Shown piece by piece: positions 671 through 63,561 of a DNA stretch of 64,000 bases. Within the stretch, counting starts at the first letter, position 1, and every line of letters starts with the position of its first letter. Position numbers and translations under genes: made by a program. Under the pieces are notes generated by a model. The model saw nothing but the letters and a program-made list of their open reading frames with translations. It did not search any database and was not told where the DNA came from. Source of the stretch: Stegostoma tigrinum (taxonomy: Eukaryota); the NCBI RefSeq assembly GCF_030684315.1, contig NC_081369.1, positions 2,780,689 to 2,844,688 on the forward strand. The letters run 5' to 3'.

Positions 671-900
671 TGCCACCAACTCCACATCTGCCCGATCAGT
701 TCCTCACTCTCCTCTGCACAACAGGGGAAATTCATGTAGTTTGGTATACATCTGAGATCAACGCAACAGAAGTGTGGAAAGAGGGGAGTTTGTTTAAAGT
801 TCCCAGTGTTCTCAATCGTGTGGAGAGCGGATCGGCTTTCCGTGCTAGATTTTCCACACAACACTCAAGCCCCCAGCTAGTGTCAGTTACACGATTCAAG
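671..900 (+). pseudogene. Degenerate C1-set exon of receptor pseudogene A (paralogue of gene 1 exon 3)
   Basis: Reads PPTP-HLPDQFLTLLCTT-GEIHVVWY...KEGSLFKVPSVL, then after a frameshift C*IFHTTLKPPASVSYTIQ. This matches gene 1 C1 (PPTP..TLLCAT..EINITWY..KEGLYQISSYL..CEISHVSLYVPANDSY). The acceptor is TA instead of AG, the donor is G|at, the GFFP segment is deleted, and there is an in-frame TAG. Confidence 0.85.
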
Positions 901-2309
901 ATGAGAAATGTGAGCCTTTATTACTGTTTCTCAGACCCTAGTGTTGTGCGACATCCCGTGACCTATTTGATTCATTTTTAAAGTGTGATAGTGAAAAGCG
1001 CCACTGTCTGTAGCTTTTGCTTTCTTTTTGGCGAGGAACCTGACAACATGGCGTGATGTAAATTTGGTGGTACAACTTAGAATGCGGACTATAAATTTCG
1101 TAGCTAATCCATTTCATTCTCATGGCCTGAATTATTGACGATAGACCAGTGACATTGTGCATTTATTAGACATCACTTCATTTCACAGCATCCATGGACT
1201 TTCTACATCAAGATTTTTGCATGGCTTCTAATGACAGATGCAGAAGTGCAGGTCAAAGAATTGTTGAGAATCAAATTAAAAAAGACTTTAGTTCGATTCA
1301 GATGTGATCTAAACTCGATTTACATTTGGGAGGTTGCATAAAGTTTGCTTTGGCAATGTAATCGAAATAAACAGGGCTCATGACAGGTATGTTGGGGTAT
1401 AAAATAAGCGTGAGTAATAGAGCAGAGAAACTGCTGTCATTACGTTCAGAAAACTAAACGCCTGAAATCACTGGTATGACAGTGTAACAAAATCTAAAAT
1501 ACTGGTTGACTAATAGAGCCAAATCAATAAAACAAAATGGCTTTAATTAACCTGTCATTAGTAAGTGTCGTCTTGATTCTGTAACCCAGTCCTGGGCACT
1601 TGGTGAGAAAAATCTGAAGAATGTCCATCGGTTACTATACGTTTAAAAGAAAATTTCCAAAGTTATTGTGATTTCAGCATTTAAAATGGATAAACGTCAG
1701 AAGGTATTAATTACACAATGAAGGGGCCAGACTGTGTACATGTAGGTTTTATTTATCATCCCATTCCTTTTATTAAAGTCAATTGACTTTTTCCTGTATA
1801 GTTGTGGTTAATTTTTGAGCCACAATACAATAGTTGGCCGGTGTGCAAAAGCCTACCTAGATCCTCAAAGGAGGTGGGCTCTACCTGCTGCGTGTGTTGG
1901 TCACTGTTTTCAAAACGATCTAATTCTCAGCTGTTTCTATTATTTTTGTCTAATTACTTTTCTGTAATTTACACAGAGCTATTTAATTAAATTTAATAGA
2001 CACAATGATACTTAGAGATATGACACACAAATAAACAAACTTGCAGCAATATAGTCACATACATACTCTGAACTTGATTAACATTTGAAAATTATTCAGA
2101 ATTGATAGTCACGTTATATGTTATCATCTGTCACATTTTGTCAGGCTCAACTTTATCCCGAATAATGAATCAGGTGGAGCGTGCGTTGTACCCTCCATGA
2201 GAGACGATGTCCAAGTTATCGTCCTGGCTTTTTATGGTAAATTTGCTTTATTATTTATAACAGTCTTCTCTGCTGAATGGAAACATTCAACTTCTCCTGC
2301 ACCTTCCAG

Positions 2310-2429
2310 GCAACGGCAACCGTAACTTTCCAGACGCGTTGGTGCCTGAATGTGCAGTGGACGGGTTAATAGGTTTATTGTCTCTTGTTGCAATTCTTGT
2401 CAAGCGACGGATATCAGGCAAAACTGCAG
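2310..2429 (+). pseudogene. Transmembrane exon of pseudogene A
   Basis: Polypyrimidine acceptor cttctcctgcaccttccag|; 120 nt, phase 1-1. Reads GNGNRNFPDALVPECAVDGLIGLLSLVAILVKRRISGKTA with donor G|gcaagt. Aligns to the gene 1 TM (VAGCAVAGLLLLVLVIVVILCK). Confidence 0.75.
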
Positions 2430-2489
2430 GCAAGTTCTGATAGAACTCTGTTTAGTTGTTTTGTTTGGTCTACTCATTGTTGAAAGTTG

Positions 2490-2670
2490 TAACAGGGACT
2501 GGGTAAAATCCAGACTCAGATCTAGATATTCAGAGCAATGCAGATATCATTCAGAATGCTTGGCTTTCCTGGGTCTCAGTGCTCAAAAGCAGGCAACGCC
2601 TGAAGAGGAACCCTTAAGAATAATATGTCCATATCTCGATATTAATGTGAACCAAGGCTTTGGTCTCTAG
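2490..2670 (+). pseudogene. Possible cytoplasmic-tail exon remnant of pseudogene A
   Basis: Directly follows the TM exon and is conserved with 47523-47700 (-): ATPEEEPLRIICPYLDINVN vs ATSENEPFRTICQHLSIKVN. Splice acceptor not defined. Confidence 0.35.
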
Positions 2671-3129
2671 AATAAATGCCAATGATAATGTAGCTAGTCT
2701 AGATTAAATACCTTTAATGCTGAAACAGGGAAGGGGATCAATCGTGAATGAGAAAGTGTGAAATGTGCATTTGCAAAAGAATATATTGGACTTTAGACTA
2801 AATCGAATCCATAAGTCGAACCTGATGTTATTTTCTATTGATGTCAAATGTGGCCACTTTAATCCAATATTGGGGAGCTCTTCATGCATCAATTTCATGA
2901 TAACTTTTATTGTTGATATGAGTTTCATTCTCCAATAGGAACAGAGATTACTGAGGACGTACCAGACCAGCTGGAGCCACAGGTTAGTTTCATTCTCATC
3001 CAATCAGAACTTAAAATATGGTGCACCTTGGCACCATAATTATAGGAATTGCACTGAAATAGCAGAATTGTTTTCCGTTATGGCAGAACAATCCGTGAGT
3101 CTGGCCGAGTTAGCGTATCTTTTACTTCG

Positions 3130-3250
3130 CTGTGGCGCAGTGGTTTAGCACTGCTGCCTCAAAGCGGTAGGGACCCACGTGTGACTCAAGCGTTGGGTGA
3201 CTGTCTTTGTGGAGTTTGCACATTTTTCCCGGGTGCTCAGAATGTCGCTG
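3130..3250 (+). mobile_element. 5' fragment of HE1-type V-SINE
   Basis: tRNA-derived head gtggcgcagtggtttagcactgctgcctca...gactgtctttgtggagtttgcacattt. Confidence 0.75.
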
Positions 3251-3659
3251 GGATAGCGTTTCTTTTACCTCGTTATCTTTCTACCCATTGCTAGTGGAAT
3301 CAGTACCTTATTACTGCAGCAGCAGAACTTGCTTTCAGTTAATCCACCAAATCTCACAGACTTCGATGCTTGTTCTGCTGTTTTCTCGGATCCAGATGGA
3401 CAACTATTCAAATGTGTGAAGGATCCCATTCCAGACCAGTTCTGTTTCAAGCAACATTCTCATCCACAGTCTTGTACACAGGCTCTCTCTGTGTTGATCT
3501 CTGACCCTGGGACGGGATAACCAGCTGAGCTCTTTTCTCTGCCAAGAGCCACTGAGACCAGGGAAGCCTTACTGTAATTCTACAACTTGCTGGTAAGACG
3601 ACATCTGGGGTACTTTGAGCTGTTTTGATCCCCTAATTAAAGGTAATCTATCTTTTCAC

Positions 3660-6375
3660 TGGAAGCAGGTCCAAACAGTTGTCGTGTCTGAATTAATACT
3701 GGTGACAAGTGCAAGTTACAGTAGGAATAGGAGGACTGAGCAGATAAATTTGTGGTTGAGGAGCTGGTGCAGTGGACAAGGATTTCAGATCATTGGAATC
3801 TCTTCCAGGATAGAAGTGACCAGTATAAGGATGGGTTAAACCTGAATTGGAAGGGGATATTCCAGTATATACTGGCGGGTGATTTTCTAGAGCTACACGG
3901 GAGGATTTAAACCAGTTAGCAGGAGACTAGGTAGGACTTAGAGATATAGTGAGGGAAGAGAACAGTCTGAGGCTGGTGTAGCTGGAAAAATTAACCAGTC
4001 AAACAGCCAAGGCGTGCAGGAACAAAGTAGAGAATGAGGTAGGACTGATTAATTAAATTGCATTTATTTCAGTGCAAAATGCTTCACAGATAAGGCAGAT
4101 GAAATCAGGGCATAGTTGGGCATAAGAGGCTTGGAAATCATAACTGTTACTGAGACGTGGCTCAGGGATGGACAGGAGTGGTAGCTTAATAATCCAGGGT
4201 AGAGATGCTTTGGAAGGATAGGATACTGGGGTGGGAGGGGTGAAGAGAGGAGTGGGAGTAGTGCTTTTAGCTCATGAAGTTATTTGGATGGAATTGAGAA
4301 AAAAGAAAGGGAGAATCACATTGTTGTATTTGTACTGTAGACCTCCTTTCATCTGAGGTAAATTGAGAAGAAAATGGTAAGAAGATCTCAGTTATCTGTA
4401 AGAATAATAGAGTGGCTATGGTAAAGGATTTTAATTTACCAAACATAGACCAGGGCTACCATCATGTAAGGGTTTGGATGAAAAGGAATTTGCTAAGTGT
4501 GTACAAGAAAATTTTCTTATTCAGTATGTGAATATTCCTACTAGAGAAAGAACAAAATACAACTTTCTCTTGGGAAATAAATAAAAGCAAGTGACTGATT
4601 TTTCAGTAGGGGAGCACTTTGGAACCAGTGAGCATCATTCTGTTAGTTTGAAATCAGTGATGGAAAGGGATAGACCTGATCCAAAACTTAAAAGTTCTAG
4701 ATTGAAGGAAAGCCAATTTTGACAGTATTCAGCAAGAACTTTCAAAAGTTGATTGTGTTAGATATTTTCTGGTAAAGGCACAAATGGAAAATGGGAAGCT
4801 TTCACAAATTAGATATTGAGGTCCCAGAGATAGTATGTTTCAGTTTGGGTGAAGGTAAAAGCTGGTAGATATAGGGAAGACTGGAGAAATTGAGTTTCTG
4901 TTCAAGAAAAAGAAGGAAGCATATGTCAAGTATAGACAGCAGGGATTGGATGAATCCCTAAAGGATTTTAAAGGCAGCAGGAGTACACTTGTTAGGGAAA
5001 TCAAGAGGGCTAAAAGAGGACATTTGCTTTTGCAAGTGGAGTCAGTGAAAATCTGAAGGGATTCTACAAACACATTAAACTGCAAAACAGTAACTTGGAA
5101 GAGAATAAGGCCCCTCAAAGATCAGCAAGGCTGCTTCTGAGTGGAATAGCAGGAGATGGGTGAGATACTGAGTGAGTATTTCACATCAGTGCTTACAGCA
5201 CAGCAGGATAGGGAATTTAGAGAATTTAAGGAAATAAATAGCGATATCTTCAAAAGTGTCCATACTGCAGAGCAGCAGATGGAAGATGTCTTAAAATGCA
5301 TAAAGGTGGAGAAATTCCCAGTACCTGATCAGGTGTACCTGAGAACATCTTGGGAGGTGAGGGAAGTAATTGTTAGGTCCCTTGATGAGCTATTTGTATC
5401 ATTGATAGCTACGGGTGGGGTGCTGGAAGACTGGAGTTTGGCTAAATTGGTGCCATTATTTAACAAAAGTGGTAAGGTAAAGCCAGGGAACTATAGACTG
5501 GTGAGCCTGGCATCAGTGTTTATTGTTGTTTATTGTACAAATTGTTGGAAGGGATTCTGAGGGATAGGAATTACATCTATTTGGAAAGGCAAGGAATGAT
5601 CAAAATTGACAACATGGCTTTGTGCATGGGAAATAGTGTCTCACTAAATTGATTGAGATTTTGAAGAAGTGATGAAGAGTATTGATGACTTCAGAGTGCT
5701 GAATGTGGTCAATGTGGACTTCAGTAAGGCGTATGACAAGTTTCCACATAGTAGGCTGGTTAACAAGGTTAGATCACATGGAATACAGGGAGAACTAGCC
5801 ATTGGATACACAAGTGGCTCAATGGTGAGAGACAGAAGGTGGTGGTAGAGGGTTGCTTTTCAGACTGGAGAACTATGACCAGCAGTGTGCCACAAGGATC
5901 TGTGTTGCATCCACTGCTTTTTCTCATTAATATAAGTAAGTTGGATGTGAACATAGGAGAAAAGGTTAGTAATTTTACAGCTGAGACCAAATTTGGTGAT
6001 GTAGTGGACAGTTTAGAAAGTTATTTCAGGGTACAACAGGACCTTGATCAAATGGGCTAATGGGCTGAGGGGCAGGAGATTGGGAATGCTGCTGAACAAG
6101 GAGACTTTGGAGTTCAGGTTCATAACTTTGAGAGGGGAAAGATTTAAAATAGCACTCAGGGGAAAAATGTTCATGCAGAGGGTGGTGTGTGTGTGGAATG
6201 AGCGACCAAAGGAAGTGCTAGAACTGGTACAGTGACCACATTTATAAGGCATCACAATGGATATAGGAAAAGGAAGTGTTCAGACAGATCTTAGATCAGA
6301 TTAATTCAGGATATCTGTTTGACATGGACAAGCTGGGCTGAATGACCTGTTTCCATGCTGTTCATCTCTATGATG
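3660..6375 (+). mobile_element. Degenerate CR1-clade LINE (ORF1 esterase end, endonuclease, RT; internal deletion near 6110)
   Basis: Translated fragments include PGNYRLVSLASV, WRTMTSSVPQGSVL, FTAETKFGDVVDS and FMQRVVCVWN. CR1 3' end ctgtttccatgctgt..ctctatga. Confidence 0.9.
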
Positions 6376-7309
6376 CCACGGCTGTCGGACTACAAACTCA
6401 TGTGCAGAGAATCAACTATTCAGGTTTCCCTTCCATCTCTTGTACAGATTACTATGTTTTTGTAGACAAACCATTTCAGTCCCAAGACATTACTGCAGAA
6501 GATTCTCAACATACTCTGATTGAACCAACCTAATTCCTTTTTTTATTTCATTCTTTCCCATCATAATGTAAGAAGTGGTGATGTTCAATGGCCATTGCAC
6601 AATATTCAAAGCAATTCACAGCTGCTCAGACTTTGAAGCTGTTCATGTTGATATGTGTCCAGCTCTACATTCTGGCTGGAGCTGATAAATGGTAAACAAC
6701 ATCCATGTGAGGTGTGAGGCAATGACCACCTGTAACAACAAAGAACCTTAGCATCTCCTCATAACAGTCAATCACATTGGCAACAGTTACTCTCTGTTTG
6801 GCTAAGCTTCTGTGCTTCTGTGGAAGAAAACCCATCACAACAACTTATAGAATTTAACATCATTCAATGTCAATAATAATGACCATGGTAACTAACCATT
6901 GATGAAAATTTTCATCTGATGCTCTAATGTCCCTCTAGAAGGGAAATAATATATCATTAACATTTCTGACATCTAAGTTAATTCAGGCAAAACAACATGT
7001 GCTGCCTCTTCACTACATTCTTACCTAGTCATTAAGGGAAATTATTAATATGCACCCAAAACTGGAATGGTGCAATCAACCAGCACCCCATAAAGCATTC
7101 AAAAAAGTCAAATGTGAATACACTGTGTAATTTCCCCTCCCAGCCCCACACCATCCTGAATTGGAACTGCAGTAAAAAGCTGCTTCTCCACAGTCACTGC
7201 ATCAGAATGTGGGAACTACCATCCCACATCAGTGTGTATACCTGATATTGATGTCAGATCAAGAATGTGCATCATCAGCATCTTCTCAAGGTCAATCATA
7301 GATGGACAC

Positions 7310-7915
7310 TGTTCTCAGGAGAAATATCAAAAAAGAGTCTTGAGTTCTGTGCTCCATTGCACAAGCAATCTTTAATCAGGGGTCTGTTACCACATATGTG
7401 AGTAAGGTCAGCGTCCACTCTTAATCTGACTTTCATGTGGCGCCCAGTTGCCCTCTTAAACACAGCTCGGATCATAGGTTAATGACACACTGGGTTCCGC
7501 AGCAAAATGCAACATTTTTATACTTTTGCATTGCCATATTTAAATGTAACACTGATGCAATTCTTAGTCACACCCCCTCGTCTGTACATCCAATCCAGTG
7601 AACATGCAATCAAGGATGAACGGCTCTATCGACAACCCTAGATCCTCCCATAATATCATGATGTCTACCAGATCATCCATCATCTGTCTTTGGGATCGTA
7701 TAATGCTTCTGACAATTATATTCCTTCCCAGACATTTGCCAGCTGCACCACACCATTTACCAATAACCTAAATAGCCGCTTATCACTAAGACGACTTTCA
7801 AATTCTGAACTAACTTTAGTATGACACAAGAATAGGGATATTACTTGCTACAAATTGTTACAAAGTCTCTAACATCAAAGCTAAAGTTATGATCACAGCT
7901 GACAAATTGAGAACA
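7310..7915 (-). mobile_element. 3' LTR (606 bp) of an LTR retroelement, preceded by a polypurine tract
   Basis: Bounded by 8-bp terminal inverted repeats TGTTCTCA (7310-7317) and TGAGAACA (7908-7915). On the - strand the PPT gggagaggggg (7916-7926) abuts the TG start, and ATTAAA lies near the 3' end (7371-7376). Confidence 0.7.
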
Positions 7916-7926
7916 CCCCCTCTCCC

Positions 7927-9280
7927 AATTCAGCCTGAGAGATCAAATAAACATTCCTTATGACATGACGGCATTTTACAACTCCTGCTATTTGTGTGCT
8001 GCAAAATAATTAACAGCTGAAGTTTCATTTTCAATAAATCTTTTCCAGTTCAACTCTCAACACTTTCTATTCCTAATTATATTTTGCTTCCTGCAATACA
8101 TCTATTTGAATTCCATTAATGAGAGTGAAATTCAATCACTTTATAACTTTATCAAGCCATTAAATAAAACTTGTTTAGATTAAACAAGCAACACGGGGAC
8201 ACAACCATATCTTCACTTTGTATGTTGTAATCTATCTCTGACATTCATCACATGACCTTTGGATATAAGAATGTATTCAAGTTATCTACATCTGTAGTTA
8301 AGTTTCAATAGTTTATCTCATGTCAGTCATGATCTCTTTTTTTTACACATTCCACTGCCCTCCTCCTGTGCCAATTTATTTTTTGGCGGTCATTCATAAA
8401 AAATCTCCAATAATGCAATAGGCCTCTATAACGCCAACAAAGATTTCTTCAAGGAGTGCAACTAACCTTTTCACACTAATTTGTTGTTTGCCTTTCTCAT
8501 TCCACAATTACTTAAGCAGTTCAGAACACTGTAGGATCAGACTTTTCCTTCTACTTTTTTTCAAAATAACAAACTCGAGACTGTGGCTAAACTAAGCCCT
8601 TTAAAACTACTCTATATTAAAATACTAATATGTTTAGAACTGCCTGTTTACCAAAGCCTAATTAACTTCCATCATGTTTCTTCCAGAAAGAATCTCATCT
8701 TATCCAATGTATCTGTATGGAGACTACAAATCAAGCTATGAACAGCTGCTGTACGTAACTGTCAAGCCTTTTTGGCCATCTTACATTCACAAAAAATATG
8801 CCCCAAGCAGCCATGATATCAAGTTTTGGTCATGTGCTGCTACAACAGACACTAATTTACAATACTTGGAGACAATAATGATCACATAAATAAATGAAAA
8901 ATCTACTTCCTCCACAATAGCATGCGAAAAAGCAACACAACTTTTCACTTATAGGCATGATACACATCTCTATGTCTCTATTACTTCTTGAAGGTCAGTA
9001 ATGCCTGGGGATTGCTTCTCTCAATCTTTTCAGCCACCACCATTAATGTATACACAAATGAATTCAGGTTCCTTACGTCCAGACCGTTTCTTGTTTGATT
9101 ATATTCTGAATTTTCAAAGCATTAGATGATGCAATATGTAAAGCACCTTGCTGTATCAATGATTAAATTTGTATCAATTCTGTATTTTCCAGATTCCCCA
9201 CAATCCATGAACACTTACCTGTCTGTGTACATCCTGGTCATATTCCTATTTCAGATATAACATCTTTGTGTAACATTGAA
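7927..9280 (-). mobile_element. Probable decayed internal region of the same LTR element (may resume ~10960-12080)
   Basis: Position immediately upstream of PPT+LTR; no intact ORF or clear domain motif, so this rests mainly on context. Confidence 0.35.
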
Positions 9281-17468: not shown

Positions 17469-17520
17469 ATGGGAGTGCTGAATATCCTGTGCTCTATCTC
17501 AACCCTCGGCATTTACGCAG
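17469..17520 (+). CDS. Gene 1 exon 1: leader peptide MGVLNILCSISTLGIYA
   Basis: ATG in good context (aaaATGG), hydrophobic peptide, phase-1 donor G|gtattt, 183 nt upstream of the V exon and in frame with it. Homologous leader exons occur at 51214-51268 (-) and 61461-61515 (+). Confidence 0.85.
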
Positions 17521-17703: not shown

Positions 17704-18024
17704 TAGCTGATGGGAGCTCTCTCCGGATGGTTCAGTCCCCCATCCGTTTGACGGCGGTGAAAGGTACAAATGTGTCCATGAATTGCTCTTACACACTTTT
17801 CGATCCTAAAGCAATCCTGGATGTTTCCTGGTCGAGACGAAACCAGAACAGGTCATTCGAAGTGACAGCAGACAACAGGGAAGTAGTGATATATTCGAAG
17901 CCATCAGCGGCCGAGTTACACCTGCTGAATGTGGATTTTCAGGACACCGGAATCTATCAATGCAGCGCGAGAGACTGGAAACATAAAATTTCTTCTGGGA
18001 GTGGGACTGAACTTACTGTGCACG
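17704..18024 (+). CDS. Gene 1 exon 2: Ig V-set domain with germline-joined J-like motif
   Basis: Acceptor tttctcacag|, donor G|gtgagt, 321 nt, phase 1-1. Reads MVQSP..VSMNC..VSWSR..LHLLNVDFQDTGIYQC..SGSGTELTV, with B-strand Cys, C-strand Trp, DxGxYxC and GxGTxLxV. Confidence 0.95.
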
Positions 18025-22752: not shown

Positions 22753-23028
22753 TGCCACCAACTCCTGTGAAGATTACTCATCAGTCCCATTCCACACTGC
22801 TCTGTGCAACAGCTGGCTTCTTTCCAAAGGAGATTAACATCACGTGGTATGAAAATTATACAGAAATTACAACTGAGTTCAACACAACTATAGAAAGGAA
22901 CAAAGAAGGATTATATCAAATTTCCAGTTACCTCAGCCCTGTGCAGAATGCAGTGATGTACACCTGTGAAATTTCTCATGTTTCTCTCTACGTGCCAGCC
23001 AATGACAGCTACATGTTTCTTGATCAGG
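22753..23028 (+). CDS. Gene 1 exon 3: Ig C1-set domain
   Basis: Acceptor tcccag|, donor G|gtaaga, 276 nt, phase 1-1. TLLCATAGFFPKEINITWY and YTCEISH are C1-set signatures (CxxxxF-F/Y-P..W and YxCxxxH). Confidence 0.95.
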
Positions 23029-23780: not shown

Positions 23781-23784
23781 ATAA

Positions 23785-29656: not shown

Positions 29657-29764
29657 CTACCAGTGACAGTATTTTGCAAAAAGTGGCTGGATGTGCTGTA
29701 GCAGGATTACTACTTCTAGTGTTGGTAATTGTTGTGATACTTTGCAAACTTAATACAATTAAAG
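29657..29764 (+). CDS. Gene 1 exon 4: stalk plus uncharged transmembrane helix
   Basis: Strong acceptor tctcccctttctttag|, donor G|gtaaga, 108 nt, phase 1-1. Reads ATSDSILQKVAGCAVAGLLLLVLVIVVILCKLNTIK. Too short for the ORF track. Confidence 0.9.
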
Positions 29765-30222: not shown

Positions 30223-30275
30223 GCACCAAGGTCACTTCAGTTAATTCCAAAGATAACAGCCAGTTCGAAGAACAG
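30223..30275 (+). CDS. Gene 1 exon 5: juxtamembrane cytoplasmic exon GTKVTSVNSKDNSQFEEQ
   Basis: Acceptor gttctctaatag|, donor CAG|gtttgt, 53 nt. Converts phase 1 to phase 0, as needed to join exons 4 and 6 in frame. Confidence 0.75.
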
Positions 30276-31371: not shown

Positions 31372-31482
31372 AGAATACAACAAGGAGAGATGAAGTTTCC
31401 ATCTTATGCTCTTCTAAACTTCAGAGAATACAAGAGAAGTAGAAAGCACAGAAATAAGGAAGACCAAACTTTGTATGCAATG
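31372..31482 (+). CDS. Gene 1 exon 6: cytoplasmic exon with ITIM-like YALLNF and ITSM TLYAM(I/V)
   Basis: Acceptor tttatcttcag|, 111 nt, phase 0-0. Reads RIQQGEMKFPSYALLNFREYKRSRKHRNKEDQTLYAM, donor |gtacga. Confidence 0.8.
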
Positions 31483-31622: not shown

Positions 31623-31715
31623 ATTAAAGAAGAGACAGAAGTAAATCCGACTTACGAGTCTCTGGATATGACCAATTTGCCAAAACAACAACAAGGAAAT
31701 AGACTGAAAACGTGA
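31623..31715 (+). CDS. Gene 1 exon 7: terminal coding exon IKEETEVNPTYESLDMTNLPKQQQGNRLKT*
   Basis: Strong acceptor ttccttgttacttttacag|, phase 0, third Tyr motif (NPTYESL), TGA at 31713-31715. Total CDS is 1014 nt = 337 aa plus stop. Confidence 0.7.
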   Translation: MKEETEVNPTYESLDMTNLPKQQQGNRLKT

Positions 31716-47770: not shown

Positions 47771-47883
47771 CGACAGTTTTGCCTGAAGTGCATTGCTTGA
47801 TGAGAATTACAGCAATTAGAGTTATTAAACTGTCCACAACACATCTAGACACCAAGATGAGAAAAAGTTGTTTTCACTGCTGC
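47771..47883 (-). pseudogene. Frameshifted TM exon of pseudogene B
   Basis: Acceptor ctgctag|, donor G|gtaaat, 113 nt (not a multiple of 3). Reads GSSENNF/fs/ILVSRCVVDSLITLIAVILIKQCTSGKTV. Confidence 0.75.
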
Positions 47884-49295
47884 CTAGCAGATCCGGTAAA
47901 AGTAGTATGTTTGCGTCTTGCATAAGTGATTAAGCAAAATCACAATAAAAAGTCAGGACAAAAACTAGGACATGCTTTCTTATGGAGGGTGCAATGCGCA
48001 CTTCATGATATCTTTCAACGTGATGCATAATCGGGTAAATTTTCTACTGAAAAACTGTGACTGATAATAAGTCACACATGCATTATCAGTTCTGAATAAG
48101 TTTAAACTGTTAATCAATTTCATAGTACATATCTGATTATATTGCGACTGGGCTTGATGTGTATTTGTGTGCAATATCCCCAAGTATCATCATGCAGTGC
48201 AACTTCTATGAAATGTAATTGAATGGCTTTGCGCAAATTACAGAAAAGTAATTAAACAGAAATACAATAAAGAGTGGAGAAATTAGATCATTTTGAAAAC
48301 AGTGACCATCAGGCAGAGCAGGCAGGTCTCCGCTTCCTTTTAGGATCTAGGTAGTCTTTTGCACAGAGGCCGACAACCCTAAAGTGGTACAAAAATTCAT
48401 AAATAAAACTATGCAGGAGAAAATCGATTGACTTTAATGAATGGAATTGGATAGTTAAAAAAATAAGCTACACGTACACAGTCTGGCACCTTCATTGTGT
48501 AATTCACATCTCCTGGAGTTCATCCATTTCAAATGTTGAAATCACAACAATTATGGAGTTTCTTACCTGTGAATGTTCTTACGACGTTTTCTCACCAAGA
48601 TACCAATCTGGGTTACAGTGCCGAGAAGGGCACTTACCAATAATGGAGGAGTAGGGCCTTTTTTTTAATAGATTTGACCATGCAATCACCAGTATTCAAA
48701 CTGCTGTCACAGTCCCACGATTGTAGATGTTTAATTTTCTGCATGCAATCACATCAGTTTTTCTTACTGTTAGTTAGCTCATTCAGTTTATACCCCAACA
48801 CACCAGTCGATCCCTATCATTAGCCCTGTTTACTTCAATCACACTGCCAAAGTAAACCTTATGCAACCTCTCAACTGTGAATCGCATCAAAATCGAACTA
48901 AAACCTTGATCACTTTGTTCCGCAACAATTCTTAGACCTGCACAGATTCATGCTTCATAAGGATTCATGCAAAAATCTCAATGTAGAAAGTCCATAGAAG
49001 CTGTGAAATGAAGTGAGATTGATGGCGGCAATAGATCCAAATTATCGCTGTTCTTCACGGTAACTCATGACATGAGAATGAAATCGTTTTGCTACGAAAT
49101 TTATAGTCTGCGTTCTACGTCACATCATTAAATTTGCAGAGTGATATTATGTCACGTCCTGAGCCAAAAAATCAAAAGTTATGAAAGACAAGTCGCGCTT
49201 TTCAGTATCATTATTTAAAATTGCCCTTATAGGCCACAGGACACCACACCAAAATAGGAACCGGGAAACAGTTTTAAAAGTTCACATTTTTTTAC

Positions 49296-49567
49296 CCTGA
49301 ATCGTGTAACTGACACGAGCCGGGAGCTTGAATGCTGTGTGGAAAATCTGACAGGCGTAAACCGATCCTGCTCTCCACATGATCGAGAAAGCTGGAAACT
49401 ATAACATTCGCCCCTCTTTCCATGCTTGCGTCAATTTCAGATGTAAACAGGATAACATTAATATACCAAATTAGATGAATTTCCCCTGAGAAAAAATGGA
49501 GCCGTTGTGCTGAGGAAAGTGACGGGCCGAACGGACAGATGACTAATCTTCACTGAAGTTGGTGGCA
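49296..49567 (-). pseudogene. Degenerate C1-set exon of pseudogene B
   Basis: ag|VPPTSVKISHLSVRPVTFLSTTAPFF/fs/SGEIHLIWYIN..IVSSFLDHVES/fs/GSVYACQIFHTAFKLPARVSYTIQG|gtaaaa. The first Cys is changed to Ser and there are two frameshifts. The N-terminus is near-identical to gene 1 VPPTPVKITH. Confidence 0.88.
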
Positions 49568-50045: not shown

Positions 50046-51213
50046 AAAAAATTAAAACATCAGTTGAGCATGGGGATTATACTTTCGATTGTCTTCAACA
50101 AACACTTGTTGATGGAAGCCACCATTAATGGGCTGCAACCGATGAAAGGCTCGGTTAAGCAAAATGTGCCTGTTCGATGTTTTAAAACTCCATGTGAGTC
50201 TTTCATTGTGATGGAAATATTCGGTTCTGTTTGTTCAATCATTAGAAATGTGTCGCTAGCACTTATTGCCCCTCCAATTCTACATTCATATAAACACTAA
50301 CTTAGACCAAGTGATGGCACTGCAATGCGTAATTAATTTGGACAAACACTACGATCATGACAGCAGAATAAAATCAAACATATTCCGTCCGGCTGGGGGG
50401 AATCTGTAGAAAACAATGCCTCCCAGGACAAACTGAATCAATATATTTCTGAGTTAAATACGCATTGTGATAGTAGTGCACGCTGTGTGTAAATAAAACA
50501 TTTGTTAAAATTAAACCAGCATAAGTAAAACAGCTAGTCGGTCAATGACCAGAACAACAATTGATCCAGTAATCTGTATTTTCGAAGATCAGTGGTCAAC
50601 ATTCCTGGTGTACGTAGTGAATTTCTGAAGCTCTATCCCAATTTTAGGCTGTGTTGAAAGAAAATGAGAAATTATTTTGGCTCTTCTCTCAGCCTCTGAC
50701 ATCGCTGAGGATTGATTTCTGAGTGCTTTATGTGTTGTTTCATTTCCTTTCCAGTTGCATTTCCGTCAGTTAAGAGTGAAAGGCACATTTTCAGTTCAAT
50801 TTCAAGGCCTTTTGGTCCAATCTCACATCATTTTCTGAGTTACTTAATCGTTTCTCTCGAGGCTTCTTCTGACTTGGTCTTGACTTTCATGTTTGACCTT
50901 AAAATGCTTGGCGAATCTGTGGCACAGCATTTTAACACAAAGAATTAAACGCACATTTTGCCAGCAGGTCTTTGAAAGAGCTCACACTGATTCTAACAAA
51001 CAGAATTTCGTGTTCTTTAATCGAAACTCTAACAAAGAGGCGAGTTGACAGCTTGCATTTTTTTTGTTCATTCACGGGATGTGGGTGTCGCTGACCAGGC
51101 CCAGCTGCACACCGTGTTATCTCAGATGCTCCAGCATCGGCAGTTCCCACTATCTCTGCAACAGTTGTTACTCACTTTGTGTCTTTTTATCCGACAGGTT
51201 TTGGTTTGTGTAC

Positions 51214-51268
51214 CTGTGTAAATAATGCCCAAGACTGAAACGTATGAGGCACTTTCAAGTACAGACAT
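51214..51268 (-). pseudogene. Leader exon of pseudogene B: MSVLESASYVSVLGIIYT
   Basis: 55 nt, phase-1 donor G|gtacac. Upstream context atcgactttggtcaaaATG matches gene 1 atcgagtttgctaaaATG, and it has the same LGI-Y-x-G ending. Confidence 0.75.
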
Positions 51269-53433: not shown

Positions 53434-56400
53434 TCATACCATGGTCTTTTCCCACCGCGCCTTGGCGGCGGCTGCCCCAAGCTTTAGCGCGTCCTTCAGC
53501 ACGTAGTCCTGGACCTTGGAATGCGCCAGTCTGCAACATTCGGTCGGGGCCAGTTCTTTCAGCTGGCAGACCAGCAAGTTGCGGGCAGACCAAAGAGCGT
53601 CTTTCACCGCATTGTTGGTCCTCCAGGCGCAGTTGATGTTGGTCTCAGTGTGCGTCCCGGGAAACAACCCGTAGAGCACGGAGTCCCGCGTCACGGAGCT
53701 GCTCGGGACGAACCTAGACAAATACCACTGCAACCCCTCCAGACCTCCTGCGCATAGGCACACTCCAGAAGGAGGTGATCGACAGTCTCGTTCCCCCCGC
53801 AGCCACCTCGAGGGCAGCGTGCGGTGGCGCAGAGATTCCGGGCATGCATAAAGGATCTCACTGGCAGAGCCCCTCTCACCACCAGCCAAGCAATGTCCTT
53901 GTGCTTGTTTGAAAGTTCTGGCGATGAGGCATTCTGCCAAACGACATTGGCAATCTGCGTGGGGAACCACACGACGGGATCCACCCACTCCTTTTCCTGA
54001 AGGGTCTCGAGGATACTACGTGCTGACCACTGCCTGACGGCCTTGTGGTCAACGGTGTTTCCTTTCAAAAATTTCTCCACGAAGGATAGGTGGTACGGAA
54101 TGGTCCAACTACTTGGAGCATTCCGCAGCAACCAGGCCAGGCCCATCCTTCGCAACACTGGAGACAGGTAGAACCTCAGTAAGTAGTGACACTTGGTGTT
54201 TGCATACTGAGGATCTACGCACAGCTTGATGCAGCCGCATGCAAAGGTAGCCGTCAGGGCGAGGGTGCCATTCAGTACACCCTTTCCCCCATTTTCCAGG
54301 TCTTTGTACATGGTGTCCCTGCAGACCCGGTCCATTTTCGACCCCCAAATGAAGTGGAAGATGGCCCGGGTGACCACAGCGGCGCAGGTCCAGGGAATAG
54401 GCCAGGCCTGGGCCACATACAACAGTACCGAAAGCCCCTCGCACCTGACAACCAGGTTCTTACCCGCGATGGAGAGGGACCGGAGCGTCCACCTGCCCAG
54501 CTTCTGCTTCAATTTGGTGATACACTCCTCCCAAGTCTTAGTGCACGCCCCAGCTCCACCGAACCAAACACCCAGCACCTTCAGGTAGTCTGTCCTGACG
54601 GTGAAGGGGATGAAGGAGCGGTCGTCCCAGTTCCCAAAGAACATGACCTCGCTCTTACCCCTATTGACTTTGGCACCCGAGGCCAGTTCAACCTGGCCGC
54701 AGATGTCCAATAGTCTATTCACCGACCGACGATCGGTGCAGAAGACAGCGACATCGTCCATGTACAGGGAGGTCTTGACCTGACGGCCTCTGCTACCTGG
54801 GATAGTCACGCCCTTCAGGCTCACGTCCTTCCTGATGGATGCGGCAAAGGGCGCCACACAGCACACGAACAAGGCAGGAGAGGGCAGCCCTGCCTGACTC
54901 CCGATCTAACAGGGAAACTGTCTGATTCCCACCCGTTGATCGAGACTGCACTAATGATGTTGGCGTAGAGCAGCCGGATCCAATTGTGGATGCCCTCCCC
55001 AAACCCCAATTTGGAGAGGACGTCCCTCATGTAAGCATGAGAGACCCTGTCGAATGCCTTCTCCTGGTCCAGGCTGACGAGGCAGGTGTCCACCCACCTG
55101 TCCTGTACGTAGGCGATCGTATCCCTGATGAGCACGAGGCTCTCAGGGATCTTTCTGCCCGGCACAGCACAGGTTTGGTTAGGGTGAATGACCGACTCCA
55201 GGACAGACCTGACCCGGTTGGCTATGACCTTGGCCAGGATGTTGTAGTCCACGTTCAATAGTGAAATGGGATGCCAATTCTTAATTTCTTCCCTCTCCCC
55301 CTTCCTCTTCTAAATGAGGGTGATGATGCCCTTCCTCATGGACTTGCAAATTTCCCCTGCCCAAAGCGCACTATCGTACACTTCCAGCAGGTCCTGGCCG
55401 ACCAGGTCCCACAGAGCAGAATACAGCTCGACCGGTAAGCCGTCGCTCCCGGGAGTCCTATTCCTATCCAAGGACTTGAGGGCTCTGTCAGGTCGTCCAG
55501 GGATATCGGCCGGTCCAGCCACTCCCTCGTGCCATCTAAGACCTCCATGATAGACGACAGGAACTACTCAGAGGCCGTGCTGTCTGTAGGCTTCATGTCA
55601 TACAGTCCGGCATAGAAGGATCTGCTGATCCTTAAAATGTCGGGCCAAGACGACGTCACCGAGCCGTCATCCTCCTTCAGCCGGCTAAGCACAGAGCTCT
55701 CTTTGTGCACCTTCTGAAAGAAGAAATGCGAGCACATCTCGTCCTGCTCCACGGAGTGGGCCCTGGACCAGAAGATTATCCTGGAGGCCTCTGTGGTGAA
55801 GAGCGAGGCTTGCTGGCCCCTCACCTCGTGGAAGTCCTCCGTGACATCGACCCCCAATCAACTGCAGAATGAACAGGTTCTGCACCCTTTTCTGGAGTCA
55901 CGACTGCTTTCCCCGCCTCTCTCTCGCCTTCCGAACACCCTTGAGGACAAAGAACCTCTTGATGTTCTCCTTCACCGTCTCCCACCAGTCGCCCGGAGAC
56001 TCAAAAAGGGGTTTCATGGTTCTCCAACGGGCATACTCTTAAGTTCCTCAATGTTCTCTGGGGTCAACAGAGTCGTGTTGAGCTTCCACGTCCCTTTGCC
56101 GGCTGGCTGGTCATCCTGTAAGTGACAGTCGGCCAGCAGGAGGCAGTGGTCAGAGAAGAACACCGGCTCGACGCCAGTGGACCTGACCGAGAACGCCCAT
56201 GACACAAACAGGAAGTCTATCCTTGAGCGAATAGACCCGCCTGGCCTTGACCAGGTGTACCTCCGCTGCGCTCCATCTGCAGGGGTGCTGAAGACATCGA
56301 GCAGCTTGGCGTCCTTCACCGTGCCCATCAGGAATCTGGACGTGACGTCTAGTTGACTCCCCCCACCCGCTGTCCCCACGCCGGATCTTCCATCTGCGTC

Positions 56401-56840
56401 GATGATGCAGTTGAAGTCTCCGCCTAGGATGACCGGCCTGGACGTAGCCAGCAGGGATGGAAGCCACTGCAGGACAGCCAAGCACTCATTCCATACCACT
56501 GGGGCGTACACATTGATCAGCCTCAGGGGAGGGTTCCTGTAGGTGACGTCAGCCACTAGGAGGCGTCCCCCACCACCTCCTGAACTTGAGAGATGGTGAA
56601 GTCGTGCCCCCGCAGCAGAATAGCCAGGCCCGAGGACCGACAGTCGTTATCCCCCGACCAGATCAAAGGCCCACAGGTCCAGGCGCTGGACCATTTCCCG
56701 TACCTGCCGAGGTGCGGTATCCCGCACTCCTGCAGAAACAGGAAGTCCGCCTTGACGGTGGTCAGGTAGGCCAATGTGGATACACATCTTGCGGTGGACT
56801 TGACACTGCGCACATTAATGCTCGCAACTCGTACCCCCAT
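53434..56840 (-). pseudogene. Tx1 ORF2p (APE endonuclease, RT, C-terminal Zn motif), broken into at least 6 pieces
   Basis: MGVRVASINVR, FLQEC, LGGDFNC, RIDFLF, FFSDH, LDQEKAFDRVSH, GVRQGCP, YMDD and CPRGGCGGNETVDHLLLEC. Confidence 0.93.
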
Positions 56841-57282
56841 TGTGGGCAGTGACCGCAGTACCCTCCAGAAGTCCAAGGTCCAGCCCCTCCATCTGTCCCT
56901 TCATGACCATTGCCCGGGTTAACTGCTGGACGCTCTCCGGGCTCAGGAAGCCATCCGTGCTGCCTTCCGGGTGGCATCCCCCTGTCGGGGGTGCGGAGGC
57001 AGGAGGGTCCGGCTCTGGGTCAGGCTGGGGACGCGCTGTTTCCACCTTCCCGCCTGGAAGTTCCAGGGTGCCCTCCAGTGCCCCAGCGGCACTTGACCGG
57101 GTGTCGGAGGGAGCCTCAGGACACCTCCCGTCACCTGGAAGTGTGGTGCTGCTTTCCTTCTCCCTCGAGATCTTTAACTTCTGCTTCAGGCAGGACCTCT
57201 CCGAATTCCCCTCGTCAGAGGAGCTCTTATAGCCCCCCTGTAGCTGCCTCTTCCCACCTGATGGTTGCGGTTCCTGGGCCCA

Positions 57283-58260
57283 TCAACGCACCTTCCTCCT
57301 CGCTTTCCGGACTGTTGTCCACTCCCCTGGGTCGCCTGTCACCGCCTCCATCGACTCCAGGTTGTCGGGGGGGAGCGGAGACTGCAGGGGCGCTTTGCTG
57401 GCCTCAGGCCCATCCTGCAGGGCTGGGCCCTCCTGCACATTACTGCGGTCCTTGCTGGGCCCTGGTGCCTTCCTCTCCTCTGGGGGGGCTGGCCCCACAT
57501 TGCCCCTGCTGGCAACCTGGGCATAGGTGGTCCCCCGCTGCGGGCATGCCCTATAGAGGTGTCCCGCTTCCCCGCAAAGGTTGCAGCTTTTCTTTTGTGG
57601 GAAATCCTTTGCAAGGTGTCCCTCCTCCCTGCAGTTTCTGCAGATGGTGGCTTTGCAGTCGGCCGCCACGTGACCTGACCGACCACAGGCATGGCAGACT
57701 TTGGGTTGCCCTGCATAGGTCAGGTAGCCCTTGCTCCTGCCGATTACGAAGCTGGACGATGGGTGTACGATGTTCCTGTCCGCGCCCATCCTCAGCGTCA
57801 CCCTGACCTGCCTCTTACTGGTCCAGATGCCAAAGGGGTCCATGATGTCAGTTAGGTCTCCTTCCACCTTCATGTACCTTCCAAGTAAGGTCAGGACATC
57901 AACTGCTGGCACATGCGGGTTGTACATGTGTACAGTCACCATACGGCTCCTCTGCACTGGCATCACAAACAGCGGGACAGCGGTCAATACAGAGAGGGGA
58001 CCCTCACCTCCTTTCTCCTTGAAAACCTCCAGGAAGCGCTTGCAAAGCTTGGCACTCCTGAAGGTCACATCGTAAAAACCTCCTCCGGGGAAATCCTGCA
58101 GGCAGTAAATGTCCGCAGCAGCGAACCCACAACAGTCCAACAGGACCCTCTTCATGAAGAAGGTGCGGCCCACAGGTACACATTCATCTACCTTCTTCAC
58201 GGCAACGTGGATGGTGTTCCGGACCCCCTGACCTGGGGCACGAGCACTTGCCACAGCCAT
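57283..58260 (-). pseudogene. Tx1 ORF1p (ZCCHC3-like, three CCHC zinc knuckles); original frame probably ran to ~56840
   Basis: MAVASARAPGQGVRNT... with CHACGRSGHVAADC, CRNCREEGHLAKDF (degenerate) and CNLCGEAGHLYRAC. Confidence 0.9.
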
Positions 58261-58459
58261 CGTTGCAGGTTGGCTGCTCCCCTGAACCAGAGTTAGGACG
58301 AAGCCAGCATTAAGATCCACTGGTCGCAAGGGTGCACAGCCAACCTGACGTCTTCCTTTCACCTCCAACACAGCACTCTCCTCCTCTCGGTCCACAAGAA
58401 GAGTGGGTCTTTATTTTATTCCAGATGTAAGCTGGTTCACTGTGCTTGAAGGTTTGTTC

Positions 58460-58500
58460 CCAGATGTTTCATCACCATTCTAGGTAACATCATCAGTGAG
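58460..58500 (-). ncRNA. Minimal hammerhead-ribozyme-like motif (Penelope type), degenerate
   Basis: rc: ctca-CTGATGA-t-gttacc-tagaat-ggtgat-GAAA-catc-tg. It has both conserved boxes, stem II, and short stem I pairing. Two CpG-type changes relative to the expected ggtgac-GAAA-cgtc. Confidence 0.6.
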
Positions 58501-61460: not shown

Positions 61461-61515
61461 ATGTTTGTGAGTGGATCGCTGTGGAATTTATGTTTTTTGT
61501 GCATTTCGTATCCAG
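61461..61515 (+). CDS. Gene 2 exon 1: putative leader MFVSGSLWNLCFLCISYP with GC donor
   Basis: Same length (55 nt), phase and MxV...LxIxYx-G pattern as the pseudogene B leader. The donor is G|gcacat where the paralogue has G|gtacac. Confidence 0.6.
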
Positions 61516-61820
61516 GCACATGCTCCTTCTTACAGTGTTTGAAATATTCTTGATCGAGGTGTAAGAATAATTGAACTAATTTGTGACGGATAATCGGATA
61601 CTTCATGTTTTTCACATCAGTGTTCCTTTTCCTAGAAAACCTCTGGATACGTGAAAAAATATTTGCGACAGTTCAGTTAGGGCAGGATTTCAGATAGTGG
61701 AGCAGGATTCAAAGAGCAAGGCATGCTAAAATTCTACTGTGTGAGTGTATTGGATTAATTATGTTATATCATGTGGTCCATCTTCCCTGTTTCATCAGAA
61801 CATGTATCTTTTGTTAACAG

Positions 61821-62132
61821 TTGCTGTGTGCACTTCGAACAATGTTACTCCGAATGTTATGCTAATAAGGACCCTGATACAGTCAACAGTTACCATGCGA
61901 TGCCCTTTCTCCTTCGAACTCAACCACTCAAACATAAATGTTTACTGGTTCAGAGAAGGTAAAAAGATGCTTCTCCAGGACGACAGCAGAGCACTCTTTC
62001 ATGTAAAGAGAGGGGGAGCCTACCTTCATCTCTTCAATGTGACTGTCCGGGACGCTGGAACATATTTCTGTGCAGTCAAAAATCAGCATCAAACGGTTGA
62101 TAACAAACCCTCTGCGCAACTTGATGTCTACG
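61821..62132 (+). CDS. Gene 2 exon 2: Ig V-set domain
   Basis: Acceptor ttttgttaacag|, donor G|gttagt, 312 nt, phase 1-1. Reads VTMRCPF..VYWFR..YLHLFNVTVRDAGTYFCAV..AQLDVY. Confidence 0.93.
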
Positions 62133-62439
62133 GTTAGTGCAAACAGAGTTAAACGTTAACGTTTGGCTCCAATGAACGATGAATGTGTTAGCAAAAAATT
62201 TTTTCGTAAACATATACAGTGCATATAAAAGCGTTCACTTCTTTGGAACCTTGTGTTCAACAATGTACACAACAAAAACACATCATAGTAACATTACACA
62301 GTTCAGCAACTGCACTATGTCAGCAACTGGTTTTTAGTTATGGAGTGGAGAAAGCTAATGCAAAACTTTCATGTGAGGCACTTCTTACAATGTGAGCTTG
62401 GAGTAACGGAGTGAATTTGTCTGGAGCTTATTGGCAATA

Positions 62440-62690
62440 TTAAGCATCTCTAAGGCTTTTGAGTAGGTTTGTAGCTCGGGTTGTGGATGTTGTGGTTTGT
62501 TGGCTCTTCCAATTGGCTCGTTGTTCCGCAGACGTTTCATTACCCTGCTGGGGAACATCATCACTGTCTTTCCGGGAAAGGACAACAGTGCTTCATCGGA
62601 GGCTACACCATCGATGTTCCCCAGCAGGGCAATAAAAAGTCTGCGGAACAACGAACCAGCTCGGCGAGCCAGCCAACCACAATGTTAAGC
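62440..62690. mobile_element. Penelope terminal-repeat fragment with partial inversion, in gene 2 intron 2
   Basis: Related to 53060-53154 and 58420-58520. rc contains gtgatga-t-gttccc..gggtaat-gaaa-cgtc-tg; 62640-62682 is inverted relative to 62490-62532. Confidence 0.65.
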
Positions 62691-63255
62691 ATTTTAAATG
62701 TCCTTTTATTTTTAACTTTGAAAAGCCAAATTCCTATTCCCCTCGTTTAGATTGTGGCCGTCTCATTTTCTATGATCCAATTGCCAAACCGCTGATTGCG
62801 AGGAGGGAGACAACGCAAATGTATTTGTATTGATTAAGAGATAACACAGGGTGGAACTGGAGGAACACAGCAGGCCAGGCAGCATCACTGGAGCAGGAAA
62901 GTTGACGTTTCGGTCGGGGTTTACCCTTCCGAAAAAGGGGTCTCCTTCTTTGTGCTCCTCCAGCTCCACGCCGCGTTTATTTCTGATTCCAGAATCTGTA
63001 GTTCTTACTATCTCGTTGTATTAATTAATATGGACACAAGGTAGTATCCAATTTTGCTGAACGTGCAGGTAATGTACCAATTGCATTAGGACGTCGCGGC
63101 ATGAAAAATGTAATAACAACTCCCGCCACTATAAGTAATGACGATCATTGCAGCTGCCATATCCAGAAGTAACAGCTGGTTAGTTCATTAAATCATTTAA
63201 GTTTTGGTATAGAAGCCCAGTGTTCACATTTATGTGAATTTTATTTACAATACAG

Positions 63256-63561
63256 CTTCACCAGCTCCCCTAAACATTGTATTGATACGTTCCGAAGATC
63301 CTTCATCTGCTTCTTTCAAGCTGCAATGCAGAACATCTGGCTTTTATCCGGAATACTTTAACCTGACTTGGCACAGAAACGGGGCACAAATCTTCACTGG
63401 ATTTAGAAATGAAAAACAGGCAAAAGGCGAGGGACTTTATGAAGTGGTCAGCTCTTTGGACATACCAAATATACCGGAAAGTGACACAGTCTACATGTGT
63501 CATGTGTATCACGTTTCAAGCGCATTTCCAGCAAATGCCAGCTGCACTGTGACGAAAGACG
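63256..63561 (+). CDS. Gene 2 exon 3: Ig C1-set domain (gene continues beyond window)
   Basis: Acceptor aatacag|, 306 nt, phase 1-1. Reads LQCRTSGFYPEYFNLTWHRNG..EGLYEVVSSL..YMCHVYH..PANAS. The donor G|gtaagattct is identical to that of gene 1 exon 3. Confidence 0.95.

What the first reader, a model, noticed from the sequence alone, without database searches (positions are those of the whole stretch)
671..63561. Four-member birth-and-death receptor cluster: pseudogene A(+), gene 1(+), pseudogene B(-), gene 2(+)
Seen: four homologous C1 exons (671, 22753, 49567 on -, 63256), three homologous leader exons and three homologous TM exons, in mixed orientation. Two units are clearly decayed, and the V domains of genes 1 and 2 share little beyond framework residues. 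Inference: a rapidly diversifying multigene immune-receptor locus of the kind seen for paired receptor families, extending beyond both window ends.
Basis: partly seen in the sequence, partly recalled or inferred. Interest (0 to 1): 0.78.

Follow-up and report, generated by a model that had tools for sequence, protein, structure and literature searches.

The report
Shark SIRP-like paired receptor cluster
This stretch of shark DNA holds two open-frame genes and two broken copies from a family of more than 50 antibody-like but non-rearranging cell-surface receptor genes that likely act as immune brakes and accelerators, and are likely distant kin of the mammalian SIRP 'don't-eat-me' receptors.

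Summary
Observation confirmed. The four C1 exons lie at the stated bases. A and B are decayed: B lost its V exon by a 3.7-kb deletion, and A lacks leader and V. Gene 1 is intact. Gene 2 is open but has a weak GC leader donor, and its TM lies outside the window. The family continues on both sides: at least 58 C1 exons on contig C19, in two clusters and a singleton. Of 31 loci with open V and C1, 18 have tyrosine-motif tails and 6 have an arginine TM with no tail found; one brake/accelerator pair has 99% identical V domains. One correction: genes 1 and 2 differ because their lineages are old (both span distant sharks, and gene 1's includes rays). V does evolve faster than C1 in the gene-2 clade (dN/dS 1.24 vs 0.34), but positive selection is marginal. 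It works like SIRP/LILR paired receptors. SIRP membership is not shown (two domains, Arg not Lys, SIRP-neighbour markers on another contig), though a coelacanth protein bridges the two. NCBI already models these genes. I found no paper on them; this scan noted the family at least 8 times in other genomes.

The parts
671..905 (+). Pseudogene A, C1 remnant: acceptor AG and donor GT lost, three internal deletions, frameshifted; no leader or V upstream
   Evidence: similarity to the paralogue at C19:2.70 Mb stops about 320 bases left of the window
2310..2429 (+). Pseudogene A, TM exon (open, GC donor)
   Evidence: 63% to the TM of P0001
2939..2982 (+). Pseudogene A, first tail exon; no later tail exons found in 1-17000
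17469..17520 (+). Gene 1 leader exon
   Evidence: GT donor
17704..18024 (+). Gene 1 germline-joined VJ-type V exon with G-x-G-T strand-G motif; no recombination signal
22753..23028 (+). Gene 1 C1 exon
29657..29764 (+). Gene 1 TM exon, uncharged core
30223..30275 (+). Gene 1 tail exon 1
31372..31482 (+). Gene 1 tail exon 2 (two tyrosine motifs, the second ITSM-like)
31623..31715 (+). Gene 1 last coding exon (third tyrosine motif, stop)
   Evidence: the seven exons give one frame of 337 aa
46601..47255 (-). Pseudogene B, three decayed tail exons (about 47255-47212, 46949-46851, 46727-46601)
47771..47890 (-). Pseudogene B, TM remnant (approximate ends)
49294..49567 (-). Pseudogene B, C1 remnant, frameshifted
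51104..51161 (-). Junction of the about 3.7-kb deletion that removed B's V exon; a short SINE-like piece sits at the joint
   Evidence: B aligns to the 2.70-Mb paralogue on both sides at 87% and 82%
51214..51268 (-). Pseudogene B, leader exon (open, GT donor)
61461..61515 (+). Gene 2 leader exon with a GC donor (GT in most paralogues)
61821..62132 (+). Gene 2 V exon; strand-G glycines lost
63256..63561 (+). Gene 2 C1 exon; TM and three tail exons with four tyrosine motifs lie 9-13 kb right of this exon, outside the window
   Evidence: NCBI model P0002

Best explanation
The window is a 64-kb slice of a large shark cluster of non-rearranging V-C1 membrane-receptor genes that gains and loses copies by duplication and decay, and whose products likely work as a paired brake/accelerator system on leukocytes. 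Shown: leader, one VJ-type V exon, one C1 exon, TM and tail; about 30 open loci among at least 58 C1 copies; two back-end types; tandem and inverted duplications; exchange of front ends between copies. Inferred: genes 1 and 2 are brakes whose V domain binds a cell-surface ligand, so that tail tyrosines are phosphorylated and recruit SHP-1/SHP-2-type phosphatases. Arginine-TM, tail-less sisters would bind the same or mimicking ligands and signal through an FcR-gamma/CD3-zeta adaptor. Ligand, cell type and expression are untested.
For: Gene 1 is one open frame with canonical splice sites and has a clear orthologue in Hemiscyllium (V 68/106, C1 69/91). Of 31 loci with open V and C1, 18 have tyrosine-motif tail exons and 6 have an Arg in the N-terminal part of the TM with no tail exon found in about 16 kb. 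The copies at C19:9.610 Mb (neutral TM, tail) and 9.376 Mb (Arg TM) are 96% identical over 2.9 kb of leader-V-C1, with 99% V identity, then fall to 65-72% at the TM. Brake and accelerator types also group within species in Heptranchias, Mobula and Chiloscyllium. Two zeta-family adaptor genes exist in the genome. V dN/dS 1.24 vs C1 0.34 in the gene-2 clade. These traits match the definition of paired receptors in PMC3533184 and PMC3716694 (passages).
Against: No expression data were obtained. Only one of gene 1's three tyrosine motifs and one of gene 2's four fit the strict ITSM/ITIM consensus (consensus recalled). Gene 2's leader donor is a weak GC and NCBI models another 5' end, so gene 2 may be decaying. 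Selection test: P=0.03 with 5 sequences, P=0.21 with 7; in the 9.18 and 9.87 Mb clades V dN/dS is mostly 0.3-0.7. Seven of the 31 loci fit neither type: one has no TM, four have a neutral TM with no tail found, two have short back ends without Arg. Near-identical tracts could in part be assembly artefacts.
Confidence: 0.75

Rival explanations
1. The family is the true chondrichthyan branch of SIRP (shared descent), in a two-domain form that binds a CD47-like self marker.
For: SIRP-alpha and -gamma are hits 2 and 3 for gene 1's C1. A coelacanth V-C1-TM-tyrosine protein (P0176) has the C19 family as its top 28 of 46 hits in this genome and SIRP-gamma/alpha as its best PDB hits, 12 bits above the next. 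Its C1, and those of lungfish P0174/P0170, group with the family (support 0.83-0.90); their tails beat 200 of 200 shuffles on the family tail profile.
Against: The family profile scores UrIg2 82, B7-H3 81, SIRP-alpha 75 and B7-H6 68 bits, so there is no clear winner. The V model ranks SIRP-alpha 45th. One C1 rather than two; Arg rather than Lys. SEP-domain and opioid-precursor genes, recalled as SIRP neighbours, map to C23 and C5, not C19. No true tetrapod SIRP was in my tree. The CD47 search was uninformative.
Confidence: 0.4
2. These are B7-H6/B7-like ligands or adhesion molecules rather than signalling receptors.
For: V-C1 architecture; B7-H3 and B7-H6 score 81 and 68 bits; several homologues carry automatic 'NCR3 ligand 1-like' or 'CD276' names.
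Against: Repeated tyrosine tails conserved from chimaera to sharks and rays, Arg-TM sisters, and a J-like G strand with a fold nearest CD79b, NKp30 and VNAR.
Confidence: 0.1
3. Gene 1 itself is activating: its second and third tyrosine motifs, nine residues apart, form an ITAM-like pair that binds Syk/ZAP-70.
For: The spacing fits an extended ITAM (recalled); the third motif has lost the ITIM-type residue at -2 and the fourth motif is absent.
Against: The same spacing is family-wide, and the Hemiscyllium orthologue keeps an ITIM-type third motif.
Confidence: 0.12
4. A non-rearranging antigen-receptor-chain relative (UrIg-like or TCR-like two-chain receptor) close to the ancestor of Ig/TCR.
For: Joined VJ plus C1; UrIg2 is the top PDB hit for gene 1's C1 and for the family profile.
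Against: Family C1 domains form their own clade (0.89) apart from the genome's Ig-, TCR-, MHC- and UrIg-like C1 domains (outgroup labels are my reading). Long tyrosine tails; not on the contigs with Ig/TCR/MHC-like C1 exons.
Confidence: 0.07

Closest known systems
SIRP family (SIRP-alpha, -beta1, -gamma)
   Same: Clustered paired receptors; joined-VJ V domain plus C1; inhibitory member with several tail tyrosines; short-tailed member with a basic TM residue (PMC3716694, PMC3533184, PMC11599192 passages).
   Different: One C1 instead of two; dozens of genes instead of three; Arg near the outer end of the TM (SIRP-beta uses DAP12; Lys recalled); compact V domain; SIRP-neighbour markers on another contig; CD47 binding untested.
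RefSeq/UniRef-modelled chondrichthyan V-C1 proteins (P0002-P0039; automatic names SIRP-alpha-like, NCR3LG1-like, tapasin-related, CD276 homolog)
   Same: This is that set: P0002 matches gene 2 from V to stop; P0019 is gene 1's orthologue.
   Different: The names are automatic and inconsistent; no paper found that defines the family or its paired design.
LILR/PIR, KIR, CD300 and other paired receptors
   Same: Birth-and-death clusters, homogenised ectodomains on opposite back ends, Arg-TM activating forms (adaptor use recalled).
   Different: Those use C2- or V-only ectodomains (recalled), not VJ-C1.
UrIg/UrIg2, NKp30 (NCR3), PRARP and tetrapod VJ-C1 genes
   Same: Non-rearranging joined-VJ domains, with C1 in UrIg (PMC10751288, PMC12227049 passages).
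   Different: UrIg is antibody-like with several C domains and MHC- or antigen-receptor-linked; NKp30 is V only. PRARP (recalled as V-C1 with ITIM/ITSM) could not be compared: no sequence or paper was held.

Membership tests
Paired immune receptor family | Separate genes in a cluster | tested here: met
Paired immune receptor family | Similar ectodomains on opposite back ends | tested here: met
   9.610 vs 9.376 Mb V 99%; 10.255 vs 10.224 Mb V 98%; 9.865 vs 9.913 Mb V 90%
Paired immune receptor family | Members with ITIM/ITSM-type tails | tested here: met
   18 of 31 loci with tyrosine-motif tail exons; strict consensus met by some motifs only
Paired immune receptor family | Members with basic TM residue and short tail | tested here: met
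   6 of 31; tail absence judged on about 16 kb downstream; short tails complete in P0006, P0007, P0013, P0031
Paired immune receptor family | Leukocyte expression and opposite signalling | not testable with these tools
   no RNA data obtained; needs assay
Birth-and-death multigene family | Old lineages, recent duplicates and many pseudogenes together | tested here: met
   21 of 55 V and 23 of 55 C1 seeds without an open exon (three false C1 calls removed); 14.3-kb duplicate at 97.8%; cross-order clades
SIRP | Three Ig domains (V-C1-C1) | tested here: not met
   one V and one C1 per gene; one skate model has a duplicated C1 (P0045)
SIRP | J-like motif in an unsplit V exon | tested here: met
   gene 1 and most members; lost in the gene-2 clade; no RSS
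SIRP | Activating member with TM lysine for DAP12 | tested here: not met
   Arg near the N-terminal end of the TM; DAP12 not searched
SIRP | Synteny with NSFL1C and PDYN (recalled) | tested here: not met
   markers on C23/C5 (opioid hits weak, E 0.003-0.005); no family exon in 200 kb of the 2-Mb C23 interval
SIRP | Sequence clade with tetrapod SIRP | tested here: inconclusive
   direct scores tie with UrIg2 and B7; coelacanth bridge favours SIRP; no real SIRP in the tree
SIRP | Binds CD47 | not testable with these tools
   PF04549 found nothing and rang in no control
Rearranging antigen receptor (Ig/TCR) | Split V, (D), J with recombination signals | tested here: not met
   V and J in one exon, no RSS around either V
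B7-H6 / B7 ligands | V-C1 ligand without a paired inhibitory/activating back end (recalled) | tested here: not met
   paired back ends present; B7-H6 synteny not tested

The most novel reading that the evidence does not exclude
This is the surviving, expanded form of the ancestral jawed-vertebrate VJ-C1 paired receptor from which tetrapod SIRPs arose by C1 duplication, with coelacanth (V-C1) and lungfish (multi-C1, four-tyrosine tail) as intermediates. It sits on a chromosome partly paralogous to the SIRP one (OSGIN triplet on C19, C23, C5) and is the main germline self/non-self receptor repertoire of cartilaginous fish, the role KIR/LILR/Ly49 play in mammals.
Probability: 0.3. Interest if true: 0.72.

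Novelty: new variant of a known kind. Interest (0 to 1): 0.42.

Why it matters
Sharks have Ig, TCR and MHC, but I found no description of a large paired innate-receptor family in them. About 30 open genes in brake and accelerator forms, kept across sharks, rays and chimaeras, are concrete candidates for self/non-self sensing by their myeloid or NK-like cells. The coelacanth and lungfish relatives make the origin of SIRP, and its proposed link to primitive antigen receptors, testable. The principle (paired receptors, birth-and-death, gene conversion) is textbook, the genes are already modelled in RefSeq, and this window is an ordinary slice of the cluster.

Tried and rejected
A read as the second C1 of a V-C1-C1 gene with the pseudogene just left of the window: rejected, because A's paralogues at C19:2.70 and 2.48 Mb belong to a lineage with its own V and leader, and open members have one C1. 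The frame 2350-2667 as A's TM: wrong frame; the TM is 2310-2429. A TCR-like two-chain pair of genes 1 and 2: both TMs are uncharged and both have long tails. Homologue search with gene 1's V alone found none among 219 candidates. P0173, named SIRP-alpha by its source, proved to be a multi-C1 protein of another family whose best hits are on C20, so one search is no test of SIRP orthology. A SIRP-hallmark motif scan (recalled motifs) of all stored proteins found none. WNT search: no hit on C19, no use as a marker. A GPCR frame at C19:2.059 Mb could not be named. No family exon in about 230 kb of flanks (for C23). Only 145 of 886 unmasked flank frames were sent to Pfam. PMC7269912 passages did not give chromosome ancestry for this case. 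The elephant shark paper's supplement held no 'SIRP', 'CD47' or 'B7H6'. Four relevant papers (a DOI guess, PMC6761025, PMC3709836, PMC10530332) were not held and may describe related genes. No complex was predicted, as no ligand candidate was in hand.
Full report
Observation. The window is G000:C19:2780689-2844688 of a 3.2-Gb genome. The four C1 exons are at the stated bases. Against 300 shuffles, A and B align to gene 1 (z 15.5, 31.1) and to each other (z 64.4), and genes 1 and 2 align (z 11.6); A and B do not align directly to gene 2. TM exons of A, gene 1 and B and leaders of gene 1 and B are significantly alike. Gene 2's leader is homologous only by position and through its own paralogues.

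Anatomy. Gene 1 has seven exons with canonical splice sites and one frame of 337 aa: leader, VJ-type V, C1, uncharged TM and three tail exons with three tyrosine motifs. There is no recombination signal near either V exon. Gene 2 has open V and C1; its TM and tail lie 9-13 kb beyond its C1 exon, outside the window, and carry four tyrosine motifs. NCBI model P0002, labelled Stegostoma tigrinum 'uncharacterized', matches it from V to stop but starts differently. Gene 2's leader donor is GC. Of the 9 paralogous leaders aligned, 6 show GT, one shares GC, one has the site deleted and one alignment stops short of it, so gene 2 may splice poorly. B keeps leader, C1, TM and tail remnants; comparison with its paralogue at 2.70 Mb shows a deletion of about 3.7 kb that took the V exon. 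A keeps C1, TM and one tail exon, and its similarity to that paralogue ends about 320 bases left of the window. A, B and their paralogues at 2.70 and 2.48 Mb are one sub-lineage, broken in all four copies here; their closest protein match is the second half of a fused Hemiscyllium model (P0001).

Extent. Gene 1's C1 gives 69 genome hits, 45 on C19 (24 at 2.13-3.00 Mb, 20 at 9.18-10.26 Mb, 1 at 13.68 Mb), including the top 42. V searches gave 30 of 30 and 36 of 36 hits on C19. In the fetched DNA, which covers 2.59-3.12 Mb fully and the rest only around known hits, 34 of 55 V seeds and 35 of 55 C1 seeds had an open splice-bounded exon; I dropped 3 of the 35 as false. Three further C1 hits were not fetched, giving at least 58. 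No family exon was found in the flanks read. Mixed orientation traces to inverted duplications (2.42/2.75 Mb at 94-98%, 2.47/2.71 Mb at 88%, 2.52/2.68 Mb at 87%), and there is a 14.3-kb tandem copy at 97.8%. The V exon and following intron of the 2.515 and 2.675 Mb genes are identical over at least 880 bases but one, while their C1 exons differ at dS 0.26. This points to gene conversion or an assembly artefact.

Paired design. Of 31 loci with open V and C1, 18 have tyrosine-motif tail exons, 6 have an Arg in the outer part of the TM and no tail exon within about 16 kb, and 7 fit neither class. The 9.610 Mb (tail) and 9.376 Mb (Arg) copies share 96% over leader-V-C1, then 65-72%. Two zeta-family adaptor genes are present. 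All four units in the window are of the neutral-TM type.

Age and rate. Full-length profile search gave 34 hits, all chondrichthyan, from sharks, rays and Callorhinchus. In a V+C1 tree of 55 sequences (FastTree, midpoint root, deep nodes weak), gene 1's clade (1.0) includes Mobula, Heptranchias, Heterodontus and Scyliorhinus, and gene 2's clade (1.0) includes Heptranchias, Heterodontus and Scyliorhinus. The two genes therefore split before sharks and rays did, if the root is right, and their low V identity (22/87) is mainly age. Within the gene-2 clade, dN/dS is 1.24 for V and 0.34 for C1; M2a beats M1a at P=0.03 with 5 sequences and P=0.21 with 7 (my own implementation, conversion not modelled). 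In the 9.18 and 9.87 Mb clades V and C1 rates are closer, mostly 0.3-0.7 and 0.2-0.6. Faster V evolution is shown for one clade; positive selection is not established.

Mechanism. Most likely (0.75) these are paired leukocyte receptors: ligand binding by V, tail phosphorylation and phosphatase recruitment for genes 1 and 2, adaptor signalling for the Arg-TM sisters. Gene structure, motifs and pairing are shown; signalling, ligand and expression are inferred. No RNA evidence was obtained.

Relation to known families. The family's C1 domains form one clade apart from the genome's Ig-, TCR-, MHC- and UrIg-like domains (0.89). PDB scores do not separate UrIg2, B7-H3, SIRP-alpha and B7-H6. The V model (pLDDT 81) is nearest CD79b, NKp30 and VNAR, with SIRP-alpha at rank 45. 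SIRP's three-domain form, DAP12 pairing and recalled neighbours are not met. An exhaustive profile search and look-up of 30 of its 150 listed hits gave 19 chondrichthyan and 11 other vertebrate proteins. Among the latter, coelacanth P0176 has the same V-C1-TM-tyrosine plan, hits the C19 family first (28 top hits of 46), groups with it and has SIRP-gamma/alpha as best PDB matches. Lungfish P0174 (C1-C1-TM, four tyrosines) groups next to it; its PDB hits are UrIg2 68 and SIRP 65 bits. Other 'SIRP-like' names (turtle, lizard, wrasse, frog, a second lungfish protein) fell outside the family clade. Shared descent with SIRP is thus plausible (0.4) but not shown. An OSGIN-family gene flanks the cluster at 3.078 Mb with paralogues on C23 and C5, a weak hint that C19 is partly paralogous to the contig with the SIRP-neighbour markers.

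Literature. Nine searches (listings only) returned no paper on this family. I read passages of PMC12227049, PMC10751288, PMC11599192, PMC3533184, PMC3716694 and PMC7269912 and searched the supplement of PMC3964593. Several subscription papers on VJ-C1 genes were not held and may bear on novelty. This scan has already noted the same family at least 8 times in other genomes; my reading was stated before seeing those notes.

Verdict. A real, well-supported slice of a little-described chondrichthyan paired-receptor family. It is a new variant of a known kind, interest 0.42.

Noticed in passing
window 53160-58480 (-): About 5.3-kb non-LTR retrotransposon (zinc-knuckle ORF1, endonuclease, reverse transcriptase, poly-A; L1/Tx1-like by recall), frameshifted, GC 56-60%, between B's leader and gene 2.
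   Followed up: no
window 37253-38078 and 34971-35133: 35-bp minisatellite (23.7 copies) and 33-bp repeat (4.9 copies).
   Followed up: no
window 31623-31770 (+): Gene 1's last exon changes frame relative to its Hemiscyllium orthologue after the third tyrosine motif; another frame still resembles the orthologue's C-terminus (by eye).
   Followed up: partly
G000:C19:9.22-9.61 Mb: Six near-identical V-C1 units spaced about 78 kb apart; of three fetched, two have the Arg TM and one a neutral TM with tail.
   Followed up: partly
G000:C19:2619729-2648310: 14.3-kb tandem duplicate at 97.8% that copies leader-V-C1 without a TM; could splice to the next gene or be a dead fragment.
   Followed up: partly
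G000:C20:34.18-34.48 Mb (L141-L144): A separate cluster of multi-C1 genes that is the best match of turtle, lizard and wrasse proteins automatically named SIRP-alpha-like.
   Followed up: partly
P0176 (coelacanth), P0174 and P0170 (lungfish): Lobe-finned fish relatives of the family; P0174 has a four-tyrosine tail.
   Followed up: partly
L106:2937-3968 (G000:C19:3077625-3078656): OSGIN-family exon 70 kb right of the cluster, with paralogues on C23 and C5.
   Followed up: partly
G000:C14:31.99 and 32.14 Mb (L154, L155): Two similar C1 exons that score highest among outgroups on the family C1 profile (64 bits) but do not group with it; identity not determined.
   Followed up: no
window 61461-61560 vs G000:C19:2651497-2651395: Gene 2's leader region is 95% identical to that of a pseudogene that shares the GC donor, while flanks are far less alike: a possible conversion tract.
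   Followed up: partly
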